Source: a virus (lineage: Duplodnaviria > Caudoviricetes). Taken from it: a stretch of DNA of 64,000 nt. The notes below the pieces were generated by a model. That model searched no databases. It saw only the letters and a list, made by a program, of their open reading frames with translations, and was not told where the DNA came from. Shown here piece after piece: positions 27,609-44,981 of this stretch. A program made the translations under genes and the position numbers. Position 1 is the first letter of the stretch, and every line of letters starts with the position of its first letter. The stretch is from the IMG/VR virus record IMGVR_UViG_2974716960_000001, positions 13,087 through 77,086 of that record; one strand, written 5' to 3'.

Positions 27609-29033
27609 ATGACCACCTTTTTGCAGAGCCTAAACGGCCAGCTAAACACGACCCGCACGGAGAACGGCGATAAGGCGCATAAGTCGTCGCTTGATCCGGT
27701 GGTCGATTACTTCGGCTTGGCGGGCGCTATGCGTGACCGCGCCGAGGCGAGCGCCGACCTGTTTGAGAAGGCGTACCGTGCTGACCCGCAGGCTGCGGTG
27801 CGGACCCTGTTCTATCTGCGTGATGTGCGCGGGGGCCAGGGGGAGCGCGACGTATTCCGTGCCGGGCTTAAGCGCCTGTTCCATATGGACCCTTACACCG
27901 GTATGGCAGTTGTGGAGCACACGCCGTTCTATGGGCGCTGGGATGACTTGTTCATCTTCGGGTCTCAGGTTCCGGCGGGTATCTCGGCACTTATCCGTGA
28001 GCAGTGGGCCGAGGACGTTGACGCTTACGAGCGCGGCGAGAAGGTCTCACTGTTGGCTAAGTGGCTGCCTTCCGATAAGGCTGCGAATAAGGAGCTGGCT
28101 ATCGCTGTCCGGACGGTGCTGGGCCTGACGCAGCGCGAGTACCGGCAGACGCTTAGCGCGCTGCGGGAGCGGATTGGCCTGCTTGAGCACGCTATGTCGG
28201 ACGGCGTTTACGCCAACGTCGACTACAGCAAGCTCCCGGCGCAGGCGCACCGTAAGCACGTTAAGGCGTTCCGGCGCAACGACGGTGAGCGGTACCAGGC
28301 GTTCCTAGACGCGGTTGACCGTGGCGAGGCCAAGGTGAACACGTCGACCCTGTATCCGTACGAGCTGTACGACTTGTGCCGGTCGGACCCGAACGCCGCT
28401 GACACGCTGTGGAACAACCTGCCGGACTACACGCGGCCCGGCCAGGACGCGATCGTTCTAGCGGACGTTTCAGGCTCCATGTGGGGTCGGCCTATGTCTG
28501 TGTCTGTGTCGCTGGCTTTGTACTTCGCAGAGCGCAACACAGGGCCGTATAAGGGCTACTTCATGACGTTCGCCTCTACGCCTGCGCTGGTGCAGGTGAC
28601 CGGTAAGACGTTGCAGCAGAAGCTCCACGCTATCGAGCACTCGACTGGCTGGTGTGGGTCGACGGACTTGGAGGCCGCGTTCAAGGCGATCTTGCGCGCC
28701 GGTAAGCAGTCGGGCACCGTCCCGGCCACGCTCTACGTCGTGTCGGACATGCAGTTCAATCAGGCGCTTAACCACGCTGACCTGAGCGTGTTTGAGTCGG
28801 CCCGGCTGGACTTCCAGCGGGCGGGCCTTGAGCTGCCGCATGTCGTGTTCTGGAACGTCAACGCGCGCCACGATCAGCTTCCGGCCACGATCCTTGACGG
28901 GAACGTGACGCTGGTGTCTGGCTTGGCGGCTACGACTTTCGGCATGGCCGTGGAGGGTAAGACCCCTCGTGAGCTGGTGAATGACGTGATCAATAGCGAG
29001 CGGTACTCGCAGATCAACGTTTCCGGTTCCTAA
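27609..29033 (+). CDS. Ro60/TROVE-like RNA-binding protein (DUF2828-type) with vWA domain
   Basis: TENG..AHKSS...VDYF, DPQAAVRTLFYLRDVRGGQGER, SLLAKWLPS, LYPYEL; MIDAS DVSGSM, T (STDL) and D (SDMQF). Confidence 0.85.
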   Translation: MTTFLQSLNGQLNTTRTENGDKAHKSSLDPVVDYFGLAGAMRDRAEASADLFEKAYRADPQAAVRTLFYLRDVRGGQGERDVFRAGLKRLFHMDPYTGMAVVEHTPFYGRWDDLFIFGSQVPAGISALIREQWAEDVDAYERGEKVSLLAKWLPSDKAANKELAIAVRTVLGLTQREYRQTLSALRERIGLLEHAMSDGVYANVDYSKLPAQAHRKHVKAFRRNDGERYQAFLDAVDRGEAKVNTSTLYPYELYDLCRSDPNAADTLWNNLPDYTRPGQDAIVLADVSGSMWGRPMSVSVSLALYFAERNTGPYKGYFMTFASTPALVQVTGKTLQQKLHAIEHSTGWCGSTDLEAAFKAILRAGKQSGTVPATLYVVSDMQFNQALNHADLSVFESARLDFQRAGLELPHVVFWNVNARHDQLPATILDGNVTLVSGLAATTFGMAVEGKTPRELVNDVINSERYSQINVSGS

Positions 29034-29072
29034 TGTTTCCGGATACCGGGTGCCGCCCGGTATCGTAAAACT

Positions 29073-29127
29073 TGTGGACGCTAACAGCAATTAAAACTGT
29101 TTGCGGATAACAATAAAATGCGTCCAG
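29073..29127 (+). ncRNA. Y-RNA-like element 1 (short)
   Basis: TGGACGC/GCGTCCA terminal stem, ACAGCAAT motif, AACAG/CTGTT hairpin. Confidence 0.65.
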
Positions 29128-29135
29128 TTTAAACG

Positions 29136-29258
29136 TGTGGACCCCCACAGCAATTACTACATTCCATGATAAGGACGAGGTTCGGGTTCGAGTCCCGGCG
29201 GTGGCCCTGTGTCGCTGTAGCTTAATGGCAGAGCGCGTATGTAAACCAAGGGGTCCAG
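29136..29258 (+). ncRNA. Y-RNA-like element 2, YrlA-type circularly permuted tRNA mimic
   Basis: TGGACCCC/GGGGTCCA terminal stem, ACAGCAAT, T arm CGGG-TTCGAGT-CCCG preceding a closed acceptor hairpin and D arm TAGCTTAATGGCAGAGC. Confidence 0.8.
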
Positions 29259-29267
29259 TTAAGCGGC

Positions 29268-29325
29268 TGTGGTCACTAACAGCAATCAAAAAACTTTCAC
29301 TGTTAATGAAATATAATGTGACCAG
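29268..29325 (+). ncRNA. Y-RNA-like element 3 (short)
   Basis: TGGTCAC/GTGACCA terminal stem, ACAGCAAT, TAACAG/CTGTTA hairpin. Confidence 0.65.
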
Positions 29326-29339
29326 TCTTGCCGCGCATT

Positions 29340-29373
29340 AACCCGCTACCCGGTCGACGGGGGCGGGTTTTTT
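29340..29373 (+). terminator. Rho-independent terminator after Y-RNA array
   Basis: AACCCGC...GCGGGTT followed by T run. Confidence 0.85.
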
Positions 29374-29518
29374 GTTGCCTTGAGGAGGACTTACATGCCT
29401 GGACCAATGTCCGCGCCCAACGGAAACGCGCTGATCACCTACAGCGCCGAGGCGCGCAAGAAAGCCGGTCGGACCGGCAAGACGGAGCTTGTGAAAGCCC
29501 GTAAGGGGGAGAAGAAAA

Positions 29519-36323: not shown

Positions 36324-37181
36324 ATGGCCGTTCATCTGAAGGTCTATAACGAGAAGCTAGGCACCATTAACGGTGCTGCGGAGCCGTTCACCTTCCCCGG
36401 CGGGGAACTGCACCTTAGGAGCATTCTTCCGCCGCTGATTGATGGGACGTGGATTGCGGACGTGCGGGGCGCTGCCACCGACGACCTGGTGACAGCGCTG
36501 CTGCTGGCCGACCACGCAGCGCAACAGGGCCAGCCGTTCGTGTTGTTCCTGCCGTACCTTCCGGCTGCTCGCGCGGACCGGGGGACGCCGTTCGGCCTGC
36601 GGGTGTACGCGGACATGATCAACAACTGCGCGTATGCGGAGCACGTCATTGTCATTGACCCGCATTCGCCGGTCGCTAAGCGGCTGGTTAGGAACATCTG
36701 CCCGCTTGACCCGCTGCCGCTGCTGGACAGGGCGCTAGAGAGCCAAGGGCATTGGCGGTACGACGCAATCATTGCGCCAGATAAGGGCGCAGTGGACCGG
36801 GCCGAGAAGGTCGCTAAGCATTATGGCCTAGACCTGGTTGTCTGCGACAAGGAACGCGACTTTGATACGGGCCGGATTACCAAGTACAAGGTTCCGGCTC
36901 TGTCCACTAAGGGCAAGTACCTGGTGATAGACGATATCTGCGACGGCGGCGGCACATTCGCACTGCTTGCTAGCGAGTCACTTATCGCTAAGACGAACTT
37001 GGACCTTTGGGTCACGCACGGCATTTTCTCCGGAGCTGCTACCAACCTCCGGAATTACTACGGGCGCATTATGACGACCGACTCTCATCCTGGTCATAAC
37101 CGGGTGGGTGTGGCTACGTCGATTGTGCCGACTTACACATACATGCACCAAGCGATGGTTGGCCTTAAGGGGATAGGGTGA
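36324..37181 (+). CDS. Ribose-phosphate pyrophosphokinase-like enzyme (candidate Adps)
   Basis: FPGGE, PYLP.ARADR, DPHS, PDKGA, VIDDICDGGGTF, THGIFS. Confidence 0.9.
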   Translation: MAVHLKVYNEKLGTINGAAEPFTFPGGELHLRSILPPLIDGTWIADVRGAATDDLVTALLLADHAAQQGQPFVLFLPYLPAARADRGTPFGLRVYADMINNCAYAEHVIVIDPHSPVAKRLVRNICPLDPLPLLDRALESQGHWRYDAIIAPDKGAVDRAEKVAKHYGLDLVVCDKERDFDTGRITKYKVPALSTKGKYLVIDDICDGGGTFALLASESLIAKTNLDLWVTHGIFSGAATNLRNYYGRIMTTDSHPGHNRVGVATSIVPTYTYMHQAMVGLKGIG

Positions 37182-38662
37182 GCACGAAATTTGCGCCGGT
37201 CGCGGCGCTATTCGAGACGGACGCATACAAGCTGGGTCACGTTGACCAGTACGCGCTTAGCGGCGACGTGACGCGGGTGTATTCCAACTACACCAACCGC
37301 AAGTCTCGGCTGCCGGGCGTCGATAAGGTCGTGCATTTCGGGTTGCAGGCTTACATTGCTAAGCACCTGATGGAGGCTTTTGAGCCGTTCTTCGCGGCGA
37401 AGGAGAATGAGGTTGCCGCGCTTTACGAGGAGCGGGTTGCTCAGATTCTCGGGCCGGATGCAGCGCACTCGATTGGCTCGGACCATATTCGCCAGTTGCA
37501 TGGGCTTGGGTTCCTGCCGCTGCGGTTCAGCGCGGTGCCTGAGGGGACGCTAGTGCCTATCGGGGTGCCGTCGTTCACGGTGGAGAACACCCACGAGTCG
37601 TTCTACTGGCTGACCAACTACATCGAGACCGGCCTTAGCGCCGGGGTGTGGCAGGCCAGCACGTCCGCGACCATCGCTAAGCAGTACCGGCGGGTGCTTG
37701 AGAGCGCAGCTCTGCGGACCGGTGCGGACCTGGCGGGCGTCGACTGGCAGTGCCATGACTTCTCATATCGGGGTATGTCGTCGCATGAGAGCGCGGCAGC
37801 GTCGGGCGCGGCTCACCTGTTGAGCTTTACCGGTACGGACTCGCTGGTGTCGCTGGATTGGATCGACCGTTACTACGGCGGCGAGTACATCGCTGGGTCG
37901 GTGCCCGCTACCGAGCATTCGGTGATGTGTACCGGCATTGAGACGGTCGGGGAGCTTGAGACGTTTAAGCGCCTGCTGGACCTGTACCCGTCCGGCATCG
38001 TTAGCGTTGTCAGTGACACGTTCGATCTTTGGCGCGTGCTAACCACTTATTTGCCGACGCTGCATAAGCAGATCGTGGGCCGGGACGGGAAGCTGGTCAT
38101 TCGGCCTGACTCCGGCGATCCAGAGAAGATCATTTGTGGCGATCCGGACGCGCCAGTTTCCTCTAACGAGTGGATGGGCGTGCTGGGGCTGCTCTACGAG
38201 CACTTCGGCGGCAAGAAAAACGCTGCCGGGTTCATTGAGCTTGATCCGCACGTCGGTGTGATTTACGGCGACTCAATCACGGTTGAACGCGCTACGAGCA
38301 TCACCGCGCGTATGGAGAAGCTGGGCTACGCGTCGTCCAACGTGGTGTTTGGCGTGGGCAGCTTTACGTACCAGTACAACACCCGCGACACGTTCGGGTC
38401 CGCGATGAAGGCGACGTGGGCTGAGGTCGACGGCAAGGGTTACAACCTGCTCAAGAATCCAGTGACCGACGACGGGACTAAGAAGTCTGCGACGGGTCGG
38501 CTGGCGGTGTTGGAGAACATCTGGGGCGATCTGGCGCTCAAGCAGAACGCCACGATTGAGGACGAGAAGGCGAGCTTGCTCCGTCCCGTTTGGGAGAACG
38601 GAAAGTTTCTAGGCCGGCAGTCGTTTGCGCAGGTCAGGGCGGTTCTGGCCGCTCAGCGGTAG
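37178..38662 (+). CDS. Nicotinamide phosphoribosyltransferase-like enzyme (candidate Namat)
   Basis: TDAYKLGH, HDF.YRG, VPATEHSVM, SVVSDTFD, IRPDSGDP, IYGDSI, FGVGS; GTGA coupling to upstream gene. Confidence 0.92.
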   Translation: MSTKFAPVAALFETDAYKLGHVDQYALSGDVTRVYSNYTNRKSRLPGVDKVVHFGLQAYIAKHLMEAFEPFFAAKENEVAALYEERVAQILGPDAAHSIGSDHIRQLHGLGFLPLRFSAVPEGTLVPIGVPSFTVENTHESFYWLTNYIETGLSAGVWQASTSATIAKQYRRVLESAALRTGADLAGVDWQCHDFSYRGMSSHESAAASGAAHLLSFTGTDSLVSLDWIDRYYGGEYIAGSVPATEHSVMCTGIETVGELETFKRLLDLYPSGIVSVVSDTFDLWRVLTTYLPTLHKQIVGRDGKLVIRPDSGDPEKIICGDPDAPVSSNEWMGVLGLLYEHFGGKKNAAGFIELDPHVGVIYGDSITVERATSITARMEKLGYASSNVVFGVGSFTYQYNTRDTFGSAMKATWAEVDGKGYNLLKNPVTDDGTKKSATGRLAVLENIWGDLALKQNATIEDEKASLLRPVWENGKFLGRQSFAQVRAVLAAQR

Positions 38663-38748: not shown

Positions 38749-39675
38749 ATGACGACCTTATGGGCGATGCGGGGTTATCCCGGCTCTGGTAAATCCACCA
38801 GGGCGCGTGAAATCGCTGACCAGAACGGCGCGGTGGTTGTGTGCCGCGACGATCTGCGCAACATGCTTCATGGCACCTATTTCTCGGGCGTCAAAGAGCG
38901 TGAGGATGAGGTCACGGTTGCGGAGCGGGCGCAGGTTAGCGCGTTCCTTAAGGCCGGTATCTCTGTGGTGGTAGACGCTACTCACTTGGAGCCGTCTTAT
39001 CTGCGTAAGTGGGCGAAGATGGCGAGCATGTACGGCGCTGACTTTAAGCGCGTTGACGTTGACACTGCGGCCCACCTTTGCATCGTGCGTGACTTTAAGC
39101 GCGGCGAGGCCGGAGACCGGACTGTCGGCGCGGAAGTGATTAACCGGATGGCTAAGCGTCACCCGATTAAGAACTGGCCGAACATTCAGGCTCCCCCGAC
39201 GTTCGACCCTAAGCCGGTCGAATGGATTGAGGGTCTGCCGGAAGCCATCATCGTTGATATCGACGGCACGGTGGCTCACATGACGGGCCGGTCACCGTAC
39301 GACTACACGCAGGTTCACACCGACGTGGTTGACGAGCAGATTCGGTGGCTGGTCGGCCTGGTGGACTACTACGGCGGTCCGAACGGTGTCCACGTGCTGA
39401 TCGTGTCGGGCCGGGACGACTCGTGCCGGGTGGCGACTCAGGAATGGTTGTGGAAGAACGCCATTCCTTACGACGAGCTGCACATGCGGCCTACTGGCGC
39501 TAAGGATGAGCACGGTAACAAGCTGCCGGATTACCTGGTCAAGTACGACCTGTTCGACCAGAACATTCGCGGCAAGTACAACGTGCGCTTTGTGTTGGAC
39601 GACCGGGACCAGGTTGTGAATCTGTGGCGGTCGCTGGGCCTTAAGTGCCTGCAAGTGCAGCCGGGGGACTTCTAA
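38749..39675 (+). CDS. pnk: Polynucleotide kinase/phosphatase
   Basis: GYPGSGKS P-loop, RDDLR, VVVDAT; HAD DIDGT, SGR, DDR.QVV.LW. Confidence 0.92.
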   Translation: MTTLWAMRGYPGSGKSTRAREIADQNGAVVVCRDDLRNMLHGTYFSGVKEREDEVTVAERAQVSAFLKAGISVVVDATHLEPSYLRKWAKMASMYGADFKRVDVDTAAHLCIVRDFKRGEAGDRTVGAEVINRMAKRHPIKNWPNIQAPPTFDPKPVEWIEGLPEAIIVDIDGTVAHMTGRSPYDYTQVHTDVVDEQIRWLVGLVDYYGGPNGVHVLIVSGRDDSCRVATQEWLWKNAIPYDELHMRPTGAKDEHGNKLPDYLVKYDLFDQNIRGKYNVRFVLDDRDQVVNLWRSLGLKCLQVQPGDF

Positions 39676-42848: not shown

Positions 42849-44129
42849 GTGAGCTTTGACGCGCCGGAGAACGCTAACTACGCGGCGACAATCGTCAAGC
42901 TGCCGCAGGGGCTTCTCCTAGAAGGTCTGGACAACCTGGTGGGCGTGCCAATGTTCGGTTACCAGGCGCTCACCCAGAAAGAGGGCTACGAGCTGGGCGC
43001 GCTGCGTGTGCTGTTCATGGCTGAGACGCAGCTTGACCCCGACTACGCGCGGGAAAACAACCTGTTCCGTGAGGCCACGCTGAACCGGGACGCCAGCGAG
43101 ACCGGCTACCTAGAGCCGAATGCCCGCGTGAAGGCGCTCCGGCTGCGTAAGCACCAGTCAGACGCGCTGTTGATGCCGCTGTCGTCGCTGGCCTACACCG
43201 GCTACGACGTGTCGGCGCTCAAGCCGGGCGATACGTTCGACAAGCTGAACGGCCACACGATCTGCCGTAAGTACGTGGCGAAGGGTAAGAAGCAGGCCAC
43301 GCAGGGTCAGCCCAAGGTTCGTAAGCAGGTTGACGAGCGGCTGTTCCCGAAGCACTTGGACACGGAGCATCTGTTCCGGAACCTGCACTACTTCCGTGAC
43401 GCTAAGCCTGTCGTGGTGACGCAGAAGTTGCACGGCACGAGCTGGCGCGGCGGCAATATCCCGGTTAACCGGACTAAGGGTCGGTTTGAGCGGTTCCTGA
43501 ACCGTCTGGGCATTGCCACTCCGGACACTGAGTACAAGCATGTGTTCGGCTCTCGGAATGTGGTTAAGGGCCGGTCGGATAATAACCACTTCTACGAGTC
43601 TGATTTGTGGGCGAAGTTCGGCGAGAAGCTTGAGGGCAAGATTCCGGAGAACTTCATCATTTACGGCGAGCTTGTCGGGTGGGTTAGCGAGGATGAGCCG
43701 ATCCAGCGGGGTTACACGTACGACCTGCCGCCGGGGCAGTGCGAGCTTTACGTGTACCGGGTGGCGACGGTGAACCCTAAGGGTGTTATCGCGGACCTGT
43801 CATGGGAAGGCGTTAAGGACTTCTGCCGGACGTTGGAACTCAAGACGGTGCCGGAGTTCGGTTTCGACGTTGAGCATGTGCCGAACTTTGAGGCCGAGGA
43901 GCGATTCGTCCTGGCTTACCAGGAGACGTACATGGACTTGCGTTACGCGGACGCTTACCCCAATGGCGGGTATCTGCCGCTGAGTGACCGCAAGACGGTT
44001 GACGAGGGTATCTGCGTCCGTATCGAGGGCCAGGTGCCGCGCGTGCTCAAAGCCAAGTCGCCGAAGTTCCTTGAGCATGAGACTAAGCAGTTGGATAAGG
44101 GAGAGGTTGACCTTGAGTCGGTGGCGTAA
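42849..44129 (+). CDS. ATP-dependent RNA ligase (Rnl2-like)
   Basis: VTQKLHGT motif I, YGELVG, EGIC, K.KS..FL motifs; N-terminal OB-like domain. Confidence 0.88.
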   Translation: MSFDAPENANYAATIVKLPQGLLLEGLDNLVGVPMFGYQALTQKEGYELGALRVLFMAETQLDPDYARENNLFREATLNRDASETGYLEPNARVKALRLRKHQSDALLMPLSSLAYTGYDVSALKPGDTFDKLNGHTICRKYVAKGKKQATQGQPKVRKQVDERLFPKHLDTEHLFRNLHYFRDAKPVVVTQKLHGTSWRGGNIPVNRTKGRFERFLNRLGIATPDTEYKHVFGSRNVVKGRSDNNHFYESDLWAKFGEKLEGKIPENFIIYGELVGWVSEDEPIQRGYTYDLPPGQCELYVYRVATVNPKGVIADLSWEGVKDFCRTLELKTVPEFGFDVEHVPNFEAEERFVLAYQETYMDLRYADAYPNGGYLPLSDRKTVDEGICVRIEGQVPRVLKAKSPKFLEHETKQLDKGEVDLESVA

Positions 44130-44328
44130 AGCCGCAGTGGTGGGCGCAGTTCTGGCAGCTTTCGGGCTGTCAGGCTGCGCCTCCAACATTCAGGATAAGC
44201 AGACGTACGGCGGCGATGCCGAGTCTGGTGCCCAATATTGGGATGGCTACCTAAAGACGCGCAAGGGTGATGTGTTCTGCGTGTTCTATGACCGTGGCGT
44301 TAGTTGCGATTGGAGCAGCATTAAGTGA
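44113..44328 (+). CDS. Small lipoprotein
   Basis: Lipobox LSGC. Confidence 0.6.
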   Translation: MSRWRKAAVVGAVLAAFGLSGCASNIQDKQTYGGDAESGAQYWDGYLKTRKGDVFCVFYDRGVSCDWSSIK

Positions 44329-44981
44329 GCGTTGACATTAAGGACGCATTCAAGGCGGCTAAGCTGCGTGAGGCTGAGGCTAAGGCTGAACTCGCGGAGT
44401 TGCAGACCGGCCAGGCGTTGCGCGCCGAGCGCCATTTCCAGGCGACCGACGACATGGTTCACCAGCACTATTTCATCGGTGGCGTGGACTCTAAGAACGT
44501 CGCTGAGTGCGCGCAGCACCTTGAGTTCTGGCACCGGCTGGACCCCACGTGCGACATGAACATCGAGATTCACTCCGGCGGGGGTTCTGCGCTGGCGGGC
44601 CTGAGCCTGTTTGACAACCTGACGCGCTACAGCTTGAGCGGCGGCGGTAAGCACAAGGTGACCATGACTGTCCGTGGCCTGGCCGCGAGCATGGCGACTG
44701 TGCTGGTGCAGGCTGCCGACGAGCGGGTTATCGGGCCTGAGTCGTTCTTCATGGTTCATGAGCTGTCCGGCCAGACGGCGGGCAAGATCGGTGAGCTTGA
44801 GGACACGATGGCGTTCTACCGGAAGCTGAATACGCGTATCGGTGAGATTTACGTCGAGCGGTCCGGCGGTAAGTGCTCTGCCGAGCAGTTCGCGGCGCTG
44901 TGGACGCGCCAGGACGTGTGGCTTACCGCTCGGGAGGCTTTCGATCTGGGCTTTGTGGATCGGATCGAGGGGGCTAGCTAA
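44325..44981 (+). CDS. clpP: ClpP-like serine protease
   Basis: IHSGGG, AASMA (Ser), MVHE (His), D.WLTA.EA...GFVD. Confidence 0.9.
   Translation: MSVDIKDAFKAAKLREAEAKAELAELQTGQALRAERHFQATDDMVHQHYFIGGVDSKNVAECAQHLEFWHRLDPTCDMNIEIHSGGGSALAGLSLFDNLTRYSLSGGGKHKVTMTVRGLAASMATVLVQAADERVIGPESFFMVHELSGQTAGKIGELEDTMAFYRKLNTRIGEIYVERSGGKCSAEQFAALWTRQDVWLTAREAFDLGFVDRIEGAS

What the first reader, a model, noticed from the sequence alone, without database searches (positions are those of the whole stretch)
29136..29258. Middle Y-like RNA is a circularly permuted tRNA that keeps an Ile(GAU)-like anticodon arm
Seen, in 5'-3' order: TCC-ATGATAA-GGA hairpin, GAGGT variable loop, T arm CGGG-TTCGAGT-CCCG, a weak acceptor hairpin closed by a loop (GCGGTG...TGTCGC), then D arm TAGCTTAATGGCAGAGC. 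Known: YrlA RNAs mimic tRNA with the T arm before the D arm and a closed acceptor stem. Inference: it derives from a tRNA-Ile-like 3' half and could act as a decoy for anticodon nucleases or tRNA-modifying enzymes, or as a tether to a nuclease.
Basis: partly seen in the sequence, partly recalled or inferred. Interest (0 to 1): 0.75.

Follow-up and report, generated by a model that had tools for sequence, protein, structure and literature searches.

The report
Phage Y RNA mimicking a whole tRNA
This 120-nt mycobacteriophage RNA, encoded beside a Ro60-shaped protein gene, is a YrlA-type Y RNA whose tRNA-like half also carries a conserved anticodon-arm look-alike, a part the literature has so far labelled only a 'variable' stem-loop.

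Summary
Comparative data support them far beyond chance.

The RNA is the middle of three small RNAs that follow a DUF2828/vWA gene in a cluster L mycobacteriophage. The predicted fold of that protein matches Ro60.

The RNA belongs to the YrlA class of tRNA-mimicking Y RNAs: T arm, closed 7-bp acceptor, then D arm. It differs in two ways. Its partner protein is not a TROVE protein. Its stem carries an ACAGCAAU motif instead of GNCGAA.

The 3-bp, 7-nt-loop hairpin is real. It covaries, and it is completed by two base pairs formed with the two nucleotides after the D arm. That gives a 5-bp stem and a 7-nt loop with U33, R37 and A38, followed by a normal AGGU variable loop.

The same design occurs in Bxz1, in mycobacterial YrlAs and in the validated M. 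smegmatis YrlA. There it was published as the 'V' stem-loop. So the element is known, but reading it as an anticodon arm is new.

The 'Ile' identity is not conserved: close relatives show GAU, GGU or GUU. Descent from a tRNA-Ile half is not supported.

Function (tether, gate or decoy) remains inference. No expression data were found.

The parts
27609..29033 (+). Gene for the presumed protein partner: a Ro60-fold protein (Pfam DUF2828 + DUF7788/vWA), annotated 'Ro-like RNA binding protein' in related phages.
   Evidence: Pfam hits, with no TROVE hit even at E<=10. AlphaFold model pLDDT 83.5, pTM 0.83. The top 13 Foldseek PDB hits are all Ro60/Rsr/TROVE, TM 0.5-0.6, E down to 1.7e-6. Annotation of relatives.
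29138..29145 (+). Terminal stem, 5' strand (TGGACCCC). It pairs with 29250-29257.
   Evidence: Sequence, MFE fold and unit finder. The same GAC.../...GTC stem is found in all units of the family.
29146..29154 (+). Single-stranded CACAGCAAT motif. It is the family-wide (N)ACAGCAA(Y) signature and the presumed binding site of the Ro-like protein. It takes the place of the GNCGAA motif of classical YrlA.
   Evidence: Invariant in alignments A2, A3 and A6. It is present in over 100 distinct short units next to DUF2828 genes. Binding to the protein is inferred, not shown.
29155..29162 (+). Linker TACTACAT. It contains the YUAY element (CTAC) that precedes the 'V' stem-loop in YrlA RNAs, and it can pair weakly with 29238-29244.
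   Evidence: MFE helix UUACUAC/GUA-UGUAA; Chen 2014 section 6. The pairing is poorly conserved in relatives, so it is tentative.
29163..29175 (+). Anticodon-arm-like hairpin: TCC (nt 29-31), loop ATGATAA (nt 32-38, 'anticodon' GAU), GGA (nt 39-41).
   Evidence: All three pairs show compensatory changes: UCC/GGA, CCA/UGG, UGG/CCA, UGC/GCA, GAA/UUC.
29176..29177 (+). CG (nt 42-43). It pairs in trans with 29236-29237 (nt 27-28) and completes a 5-bp anticodon-like stem.
   Evidence: The 28-42 pair is standard in 20 of 21 distinct sequences, with four Watson-Crick types (G-C 9, U-A 8, A-U 2, C-G 1). The 27-43 pair is standard in 21 of 21. Helix 2 is 93-100% paired.
29178..29181 (+). Variable loop AGGT (nt 44-46 and 48). 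U29181 can form the Levitt pair with A29225 (nt 15).
   Evidence: 15-48 is A-U, G-C or U-A in 25 of 29 distinct sequences. G26 goes with A44 and A26 with U44.
29182..29198 (+). T arm: TCGGG, TTCGAGT, CCCGG.
   Evidence: helix 3 is 100% paired and 3-4 of its pairs are compensatory.
29199..29217 (+). Closed acceptor-like stem: 7 bp (CGGTGGC/GTCGCTG) with loop CCTGT.
   Evidence: 6-7 of 7 pairs are compensatory. M. smegmatis YrlA also has a 7-bp stem here, which RNase P cleaves in vivo (Chen 2014).
29218..29237 (+). U8-A9 (TA), D arm GCTT, AATGGCA, GAGC, G26, and C27-G28.
   Evidence: The D arm plus G-CG resembles the phage's own tRNA-Asn.
29238..29257 (+). A-rich 3' strand of the internal loop (TATGTAAACCAA), then the 3' strand of the terminal stem (GGGGTCCA).
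29075..29126 (+). Sister unit 1 of the array: the same stem and ACAGCAAT motif with a simple hairpin.
29270..29324 (+). Sister unit 3 of the array: the same stem and motif, with a 5-bp, 7-nt-loop hairpin TTTCA, CTGTTAA, TGAAA.
   Evidence: Model R1 hits it at 32.8 bits.
29341..29377 (+). GC-rich hairpin followed by TTTTTT: the likely intrinsic terminator closing the RNA array.
   Evidence: Sequence and the stem drawn in the BcKCsr2 alignment. The consensus scan did not list it because the stem is imperfect.

Best explanation
Window 29138-29257 (+) encodes a YrlA-class Y RNA. It is the RNA partner of the Ro60-fold DUF2828/vWA protein encoded just upstream.

One end is the 8-bp terminal stem plus the unpaired ACAGCAAU motif. 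This is the protein-binding module (inferred).

The other end is a nearly complete tRNA body in permuted connectivity. In order it has:
- an anticodon-stem-loop mimic, with 3 pairs inside a hairpin, 2 pairs with the nucleotides after the D arm, and a 7-nt U-turn-type loop;
- a 4-nt variable loop;
- a T arm;
- a closed 7-bp acceptor;
- a D arm.

The stem that leads to the protein branches from the 5' strand of the anticodon-like stem, between nt 28 and 29.

As in other Ro/Y RNA particles, the tRNA-like module most likely recruits a tRNA-recognising host or phage factor to the Ro-like ring, or gates access to the ring, during infection. By analogy with the host's own YrlA, RNase P may nick it in the acceptor loop.

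Shown: the structure, its conservation, the fold of the neighbouring protein and the class relationship. Inferred: binding, processing and function.
For: - Position: the RNA lies directly downstream of a gene whose model matches Ro60 structures over its full length.
- Linkage: the same gene-RNA pairing recurs in about 120 loci from phages, prophages and metagenomes.
- Structure: 100% pairing and 14 of 21 compensatory pairs on a MAFFT alignment. Pairing is 96.8% on a 44-sequence model alignment and 97.5% on a 20-sequence one.
- Independent model: R2 was built without any mycobacterial sequence. It hits this RNA at 58.9 bits, classical Rsr-linked mycobacterial YrlAs at 43-67 bits and Bxz1 YrlA at 43.9 bits.
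- Tertiary pairs: 15-48 and 26-44 covary.
- Anticodon-arm mimic: cis plus trans pairs sum to 5; 7-nt loops dominate; U33 17/17, R37 15/17, A38 15/17.
- Validated relative: the M. smegmatis YrlA 5' probe and primer sequences give UUAC, CCA, CUUCUAA, UGG, AA, UGGUC. That RNA binds Rsr, is cut by RNase P and receives CCA (Chen 2014).
- Independent hint: GenBank annotators called the 5' part of the orthologous RNA 'tRNA-Thr' or 'tRNA-Asn' in Zakai and Wilder.
- Context: the same phage encodes Pnkp and an RNA ligase. This parallels the bacterial rsr-yrlA-rtcBA repair operon.
Against: - No expression, end-mapping or binding data exist for this RNA.
- The Rfam YrlA model gives only 21.7 bits against a gathering score of 69. 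A tRNA-tRNA junction in the same phage scores the same.
- The GNCGAA Rsr-binding motif is absent, and the partner is not a TROVE protein by sequence.
- The folding energy is no better than shuffles.
- The cis stem is only 3 bp, and A29175 could pair with U29238 instead. The helix linking to the terminal stem is poorly conserved.
- Alignments A4 and A7 were fitted to the model structure, so they lean towards it.
- The effector is unknown even for classical YrlA.
Confidence: 0.7

Rival explanations
1. Decoy. The RNA, alone or on the Ro-like protein, mainly soaks up host enzymes that read tRNA anticodon loops (anticodon nucleases, toxin RNases, modification enzymes), and so protects real tRNAs during infection. 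The sister units would offer further loops.
For: - The anticodon-loop signature is conserved, while the central triplet changes even between near-identical phages (GAU/GGU/GUU).
- Many short sister units carry 5-bp, 7-nt-loop hairpins such as CUGUUAA, CUGCUAA, CUUCUAA and CUUUUAA.
- Loops identical to those of ANN-decoding tRNAs recur.
- The phage also carries a tRNA set, Pnkp and an RNA ligase, the classic answer to anticodon nucleases.
Against: - No nuclease or enzyme is linked to it.
- Only 17 of 40 seven-nt loops in short units have both U33 and R37.
- The host itself encodes a YrlA of the same design, which is hard to explain as an anti-defence decoy.
- A 3+2 split stem may not be recognised like a real anticodon stem.
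- This reading overlaps the tether model rather than excluding it.
Confidence: 0.15
2. Processing or stability element. The tRNA-like fold serves mainly as an RNase P/RNase Z-type punctuation mark, or as a nuclease-resistant cap. It would mature and stabilise the three-RNA array or the upstream mRNA, and it has no trans-acting partner of its own.
For: - The three units lie head to tail between the gene's stop codon and one terminator, so a common precursor is likely.
- M. smegmatis YrlA is cut by RNase P. Chen 2014 suggested that the stable tRNA fold may protect Y RNAs from exonucleases.
Against: - RNase P would cut inside the unit, in the acceptor loop, not between units.
- Units without a tRNA module exist in the same arrays and would need other processing.
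- Conservation of the anticodon-like loop signature and of the terminal stem and motif is not explained.
Confidence: 0.1
3. A real but unusual tRNA gene (permuted or split) or a decaying tRNA pseudogene. After processing it would yield a decoding tRNA-Ile, or it would have no function at all.
For: - Annotators of three related phages called part of it a tRNA.
- The D arm plus G26-C27-G28, the T loop and the variable loop resemble the phage tRNA-Asn.
Against: - ARAGORN and the Rfam tRNA model do not call it here or in 37 related loci.
- The acceptor is closed and no CCA is encoded.
- The anticodon-like stem is split.
- The whole unit, with its terminal stem and ACAGCAA motif, is conserved with compensatory changes across distant phages. 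That rules out decay.
- The 'anticodon' is not conserved.
Confidence: 0.03

Closest known systems
Mycobacterium smegmatis YrlA (Chen et al. 2014, RNA 20:1715, PMC4201824): Rsr-bound, RNase P-cleaved, CCA-added Y RNA of this phage's host
   Same: The order of elements is the same: YUAY, 3-bp hairpin with a 7-nt loop, two nucleotides, a 5-nt variable loop, T arm, closed 7-bp acceptor, D arm. The published probe and primer read UUAC, CCA, CUUCUAA, UGG, AA, UGGUC. It is also encoded next to a Ro60-fold gene.
   Different: Its partner is a TROVE Rsr and its stem carries GNCGAAN0-1G. It lies upstream of the gene. Here the partner is DUF2828, the motif is ACAGCAAU and the RNA lies downstream, in a three-unit array. 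Expression and binding are shown for the host RNA but not for this one.
YrlA of cluster C mycobacteriophages (ET08/Bxz1; Chen 2014), upstream of TROVE gene gp220
   Same: The composite anticodon-like arm is the same: CUC, AUUGCAA, GAG, then AG pairing with CU after the D arm, then AGGUC. Model R2 hits it at 43.9 bits. It is a phage-borne Y RNA.
   Different: Its protein is TROVE + vWA_Ro60 and its motif is of the GCCGAG type. It has a long acceptor-like stem and is a single RNA rather than part of an array.
Salmonella Typhimurium YrlA, Rfam RF02553, crystal structure 6CU1 (Wang et al. 2018, bioRxiv 10.1101/312249)
   Same: T arm before D arm, a closed acceptor, tRNA tertiary pairs and an L-shape. 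The anticodon-stem position leads to the Ro-binding module.
   Different: Salmonella YrlA has no hairpin before the variable loop: its anticodon-like stem is formed entirely in trans and has no loop. The Rfam model built around it scores this RNA only 21.7 bits.
Thermus phage phiLo Ro60 with Yrl1/Yrl2 (NAR 2025, PMC12135203)
   Same: A phage-encoded Ro60-fold protein with adjacent phage-encoded Y-like RNAs. It was proposed to hijack host PNPase.
   Different: Those RNAs carry the CGAA motif, and no tRNA-like module is described for them.
Permuted or split tRNA-type genes (two-piece tmRNA, Cyanidioschyzon permuted tRNAs); from general knowledge
   Same: The 3' half of a tRNA body is encoded before the 5' half.
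   Different: Those are processed to give free, aminoacylatable acceptor ends. Here the acceptor is a closed hairpin and the ends sit in a protein-binding stem.

Membership tests
YrlA-type bacterial/phage Y RNA (Chen 2014; Rfam RF02553) | Encoded next to a Ro60 orthologue | tested here: inconclusive
   The RNA is adjacent to a protein with a Ro60 fold. The protein belongs to Pfam DUF2828/DUF7788, with no TROVE match even at E<=10. It is therefore a structural relative, not a recognised orthologue.
YrlA-type bacterial/phage Y RNA (Chen 2014; Rfam RF02553) | T-arm-like and D-arm-like stem-loops with the conserved tRNA nucleotides, T before D, and a stem-loop (AS) between them | tested here: met
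   these helices are 97-100% paired, with compensatory changes in the T and AS helices.
YrlA-type bacterial/phage Y RNA (Chen 2014; Rfam RF02553) | Levitt 15-48 pair kept by covariation (G15:C48 or A15:U48) | tested here: met
   The window has A15-U48. Across 29 distinct relatives there are 15 G-C, 9 A-U and 1 U-A.
YrlA-type bacterial/phage Y RNA (Chen 2014; Rfam RF02553) | YUAY element and a less-conserved 'V' stem-loop upstream of the T arm | tested here: met
   CUAC at 29157-29160 is followed by the hairpin at 29163-29175. Bxz1 and mycobacterial YrlAs show the same arrangement.
YrlA-type bacterial/phage Y RNA (Chen 2014; Rfam RF02553) | GNCGAAN0-1G motif near the 5' end (the presumed Rsr-binding site) | tested here: not met
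   The 5' part reads UGGACCCCCACAGCAAU. The family-wide motif here is (N)ACAGCAA(Y).
YrlA-type bacterial/phage Y RNA (Chen 2014; Rfam RF02553) | Score at or above the Rfam gathering threshold (69 bits) | tested here: not met
   The score is 21.7 bits. Accepted members also fail: Bxz1 scores 32.5 and mycobacterial YrlAs 33-52 bits. A tRNA-tRNA junction in the same phage scores 22.5. The threshold is not informative in this clade.
YrlA-type bacterial/phage Y RNA (Chen 2014; Rfam RF02553) | Expressed and bound by the Ro protein | not testable with these tools
   No RNA run holds the sequence. The RNA-protein complex cannot be modelled with the tools offered.
tRNA (RF00005) | Cloverleaf in standard order with free acceptor ends; called by tRNA finders | tested here: not met
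   There is no ARAGORN or Rfam tRNA call at 29138-29257. The order is permuted and the acceptor is closed.
Dictyostelium Class I RNA (RF01414), considered for the ACAGCAA stem design of the array | Score at or above the gathering threshold (41.5 bits) | tested here: not met
   Only sister unit 3 hits, at 21.9 bits and E 0.13. There were no hits at E<=0.01 in 15 AT-rich related loci.

The most novel reading that the evidence does not exclude
The 'V' stem-loop of YrlA-type Y RNAs, in this phage, in Bxz1 and in the host's own YrlA, may be a true anticodon-stem-loop mimic. It would be assembled from a 3-bp hairpin plus 2 trans pairs. These RNAs would then copy an entire tRNA, with the Ro-binding stem branching off the anticodon stem. 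Their unknown effectors would include proteins that read the anticodon loop. Phages would pair this module with a second, sequence-unrelated family of Ro60-fold proteins (DUF2828) through a different handle (ACAGCAA). They would vary the displayed 'anticodon' to engage or divert host anticodon-directed enzymes.
Probability: 0.3. Interest if true: 0.75.

Novelty: new variant of a known kind. Interest (0 to 1): 0.55.

Why it matters
The effector bound by the tRNA-like half of YrlA RNAs has been unknown since 2014. The search has focused on the elbow. If the module also presents an anticodon-loop look-alike, the candidate list widens to anticodon nucleases, loop-modifying enzymes and synthetases. 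That gives simple tests: loop swaps and compensatory stem mutants.

The finding also ties tRNA-mimic Y RNAs to a second, uncharacterised family of Ro60-shaped proteins. DUF2828 is common in phages and also occurs in plants. The link comes through a different RNA handle, which suggests that Ro-type particles are more widespread and modular than TROVE-based searches showed.

For phage biology, it places a Ro-like particle beside tRNA genes, Pnkp and an RNA ligase. This could be part of an RNA-damage or counter-defence toolkit.

Tried and rejected
- **Rfam YrlA model as a membership test.** It was not discriminating: 21.7 bits here, 22.5 for a tRNA-tRNA junction and 32-52 for accepted members.
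- **Single-sequence thermodynamics.** z = 0.16, uninformative.
- **Profile search of the protein against PDB sequences.** It found no Ro60. Only the fold comparison did.
- **RNA-seq look-up.** No RNA holder is listed, only one DNA run that may be the source sample.
- **MAFFT alignments A2 and A5.** They were out of register around the hairpin and were not used for counts.
- **Pattern scan CTTCCA-N7-TGGCGAGG of viral contigs.** Too unspecific, with 115 or more mostly chance hits. The stricter UCC-type pattern found only two known relatives.
- **Descent from tRNA-Ile.** Rejected, because the triplet varies among close relatives. The best match among the phage's own tRNAs is tRNA-Asn, and that match is weak.
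- **Link to Dictyostelium Class I RNAs through the CUNACAGCAAU motif.** It stays below threshold and did not repeat in other loci. It is kept only as a curiosity.
- **Literature.** Supplementary tables of Chen 2014 and the 2020 Annual Review on bacterial Ro60 are not held. I therefore could not check whether cluster L phages were in their lists. No held paper links DUF2828 to Y RNAs.
- **Promoter and terminator scan.** It gave one weak promoter-like site inside unit 1 and missed the imperfect terminator.

Full report
**Where it lies.** The window is most of a 77-kb cluster L-type mycobacteriophage. It is 85% identical over this stretch to L2 phages such as Faith1, Zakai and Loadrie. Gene 27609-29033 (+) is called 'Ro-like RNA binding protein' in related records. 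Between its stop codon and a GC-rich hairpin with a T-run (29341-29377) lie three head-to-tail small-RNA units. Each has a terminal stem (TGGAC.../...GTCCA) and an unpaired (N)ACAGCAAT just after the 5' strand. The finding concerns the middle unit, 29138-29257.

**The observation.**
- hairpin TCC, ATGATAA, GGA (29163-29175);
- AGGT (29178-29181);
- T arm (29182-29198);
- a closed 7-bp acceptor-like hairpin (29199-29217);
- TA and the D arm (29218-29234);
- an 8-bp terminal stem around it all.

A single-sequence fold recovers these helices, but its energy is ordinary (z = 0.16). The case therefore rests on comparison with relatives.

**Relatives.** I collected the DNA around relatives of the protein:
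- 35 viral loci;
- 7 loci from bacterial genomes, including a Mycolicibacterium sphagni prophage and MAGs of other phyla;
- 80 metagenome loci.

A simple unit finder showed ACAGCAA-stem RNAs beside these genes almost everywhere. They come in three designs:
- plain hairpin units;
- permuted tRNA-like units, like the one in the window;
- unpermuted units with D arm, anticodon arm, variable loop and T arm sitting on the same stem. ARAGORN calls several of these tRNAs.

**Tests of the structure.**
- On a plain MAFFT alignment of eight permuted units from mycobacteriophages and unrelated metagenomes, my structure gives 164 of 164 standard pairs. 14 of 21 pairs have changes on both sides, 0 of 500 shuffles are as good, and slid controls give 32-47% paired.
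- A model built from that alignment finds 45 matches in 100 loci. Pairing on the resulting alignment is 96.8%.
- The stricter test used model R2, built only from four non-mycobacterial sequences. It hits the window RNA at 58.9 bits (E 2.9e-11) and nothing else in the window at E<=0.01.
- R2 also hits Rsr-linked mycobacterial YrlAs at 43-67 bits and Bxz1 YrlA at 43.9 bits.
- On that alignment 97.5% of cells pair. All three hairpin pairs and both trans pairs show compensatory change.
- The tertiary Levitt pair 15-48 is A-U, G-C or U-A in 25 of 29 distinct sequences. G26 goes with A44 and A26 with U44.

**The hairpin.** Two subtypes of the permuted design exist.
- In subtype A, five nucleotides before the variable loop pair with the five nucleotides after nt 26. 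This matches the Salmonella crystal structure. Examples are L1-type phage DirkDirk, the L011/L020 group and several mycobacterial YrlAs.
- In subtype B, which includes the window, only the two outer pairs (27-43, 28-42) are made that way. The inner three are made with an upstream strand, closing a loop.

For subtype B:
- Cis plus trans pairs sum to five: 3+2 in most, 4+1 or 5+0 in a few.
- In 21 distinct sequences the three inner pairs are standard 21 of 21 times, with 3-5 pair types each.
- Pair 28-42 is standard in 20 of 21 (G-C 9, U-A 8, A-U 2, C-G 1). Pair 27-43 is standard in 21 of 21.
- Among model-aligned rows with all five pairs, the loop is 7 nt in 19, 8 nt in 3 and 1 nt in a single row that looks like a fitting artefact.
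- The 17 distinct 7-nt loops have U at position 33 in 17, a purine at 37 in 15 and A at 38 in 15.
- Shuffled sequences give the composite arrangement in 2-4% of trials.
- After the stem comes a 4-5-nt loop, AGGU or AGGUC, like the variable loop of an ordinary class I tRNA.

This geometry fits an anticodon arm plus a normal variable loop much better than it fits a class II variable arm.

**Relation to what is published.** Chen et al. 2014 described YrlA RNAs next to Ro60 genes in over 250 bacteria and phages, including mycobacteriophages. [quoted passage not shown] Wang et al. 2018 state that YrlA 'lacks the anticodon loop'.

I find the subtype B arrangement in three published or classical cases:
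- Bxz1: CUC, AUUGCAA, GAG, AG ... CU;
- mycobacterial YrlAs L139, L140 and L142;
- the validated M. smegmatis YrlA, read from its published probe and primer as CCA, CUUCUAA, UGG, AA, UGGUC.

The object is not new, but the reading is, and my counts favour it. It also fits the dimeric-tRNA origin model cited by Wang et al., in which the T arm comes from an upstream tRNA.

**What is not supported.**
- The triplet is GAU in the window, L007 and L009. It is GGU or GUU in otherwise near-identical L2 phages. Elsewhere it is UUU, UUG, UUC, UGA, GUG, UGC, UCU and others. There is no Ile identity.
- Among the phage's own tRNAs, the weak best match for the D arm, G26-C27-G28 and T loop is tRNA-Asn(GUU).
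- In cluster L, the two hairpin types (UCC/GGA and CCA/UGG) combine freely with three different T/acceptor/D modules. All six combinations occur. The parts are exchanged rather than inherited as one tRNA half.

**The partner protein.** Pfam gives DUF2828 + DUF7788 + a weak vWA match, and no TROVE even at E<=10. Bxz1 gp220 is TROVE + vWA_Ro60. A profile search of PDB sequences finds nothing. The AlphaFold model (pLDDT 83.5) nevertheless matches Ro60, Rsr and phage phiLo Ro60 over its full length. These are the top 13 hits, with TM 0.5-0.6. Hence it is a Ro60-fold protein of a separate sequence family, with a different RNA handle: ACAGCAA instead of GNCGAA.

**Mechanism.** I commit to a YrlA-class Y RNA (confidence 0.7).
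- The stem and motif hold the Ro-like ring.
- The tRNA-like module recruits or blocks a tRNA-recognising factor.
- The 7-bp acceptor makes RNase P nicking likely, as in the host YrlA.
- The phage's Pnkp (38749-39675) and RNA ligase (42849-44129) echo the bacterial rsr-yrlA-rtcBA repair operon.
- A phage Ro60 has been reported to capture host PNPase.

A decoy role for anticodon-directed enzymes is attractive, given the variable triplets, but it is untested. No RNA-seq run holds the sequence.

**Verdict.**
- Observation: confirmed.
- Interpretation: partly supported. The class and the anticodon-arm likeness hold; the Ile identity and tRNA-Ile ancestry do not; the function is open.
- Novelty: a new variant of a known kind. 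It is a YrlA-type tRNA mimic attached to a non-TROVE Ro60-fold protein, and it gives comparative evidence that the YrlA 'V' arm is an anticodon-arm mimic.

Noticed in passing
window 29075-29126 and 29270-29324; loci L003-L124: The gene-linked ACAGCAA-stem RNAs form a large family next to DUF2828 genes in phages of many hosts. Arrays hold 1-5 units. The most common hairpin in short units has a 5-bp stem and a 7-nt loop (40 of about 130 hairpins). Only 17 of those 40 have both U33 and R37.
   Followed up: partly
L066:1181-1272, L080:620-724, L083:676-781, L089:1185-1283, L094:357-452: Some units carry an unpermuted tRNA-like body (D arm, 5-bp/7-nt anticodon arm, variable loop, T arm) on top of the ACAGCAA stem. 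ARAGORN calls them tRNA-Met, Ile, Pro or Ser. So both topologies of tRNA mimic are used with the same handle.
   Followed up: partly
L001, L003, L007, L009, L010 versus window 29163-29234: Cluster L phages show all six combinations of two hairpin types (UCC-AUGAUAA-GGA, CCA-CUGNUAA-UGG) with three T/acceptor/D modules (acceptor hairpins of 19, 27 and 28 nt). This implies recombination inside the RNA gene.
   Followed up: no
L001:1607-1677 (Zakai), L002:1607-1677 (Wilder); Gardann: GenBank records annotate the 5' two-thirds of the orthologous RNA as tRNA-Thr or tRNA-Asn. These look like mis-annotations of the Y RNA.
   Followed up: yes
window 29271-29325: Sister unit 3 gives a sub-threshold match (21.9 bits, E 0.13) to Dictyostelium Class I RNA. 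The two share a short end stem plus CUNACAGCAAU. The match did not repeat in 15 other loci. Class I RNAs are said to be unique to dictyostelids.
   Followed up: partly
window 29046-29066: A perfect GC-rich hairpin (GGATACCGGG-TGCC-GCCCGGTATC region) lies just after the stop codon of the Ro-like gene. It is conserved in L2 relatives and has no T-run. It may be a processing or attenuation site between the mRNA and the RNA array.
   Followed up: no
window 36324-38662, 38749-39675, 42849-44129, 44325-44981: The window also holds a phosphoribosyltransferase-like gene plus a NAMPT-like gene, a T4-type Pnkp (kinase plus HAD phosphatase), an RNA ligase (PF09414) and a ClpP-like protease. Together these form an RNA-repair and NAD-salvage neighbourhood.
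   Followed up: partly
L026:964-1395, L041:1-1412, L050:11-1411, L108:2723-3751: DUF2828 loci in other phages sit beside tRNA gene arrays, and in L026 beside a tmRNA gene.
   Followed up: no
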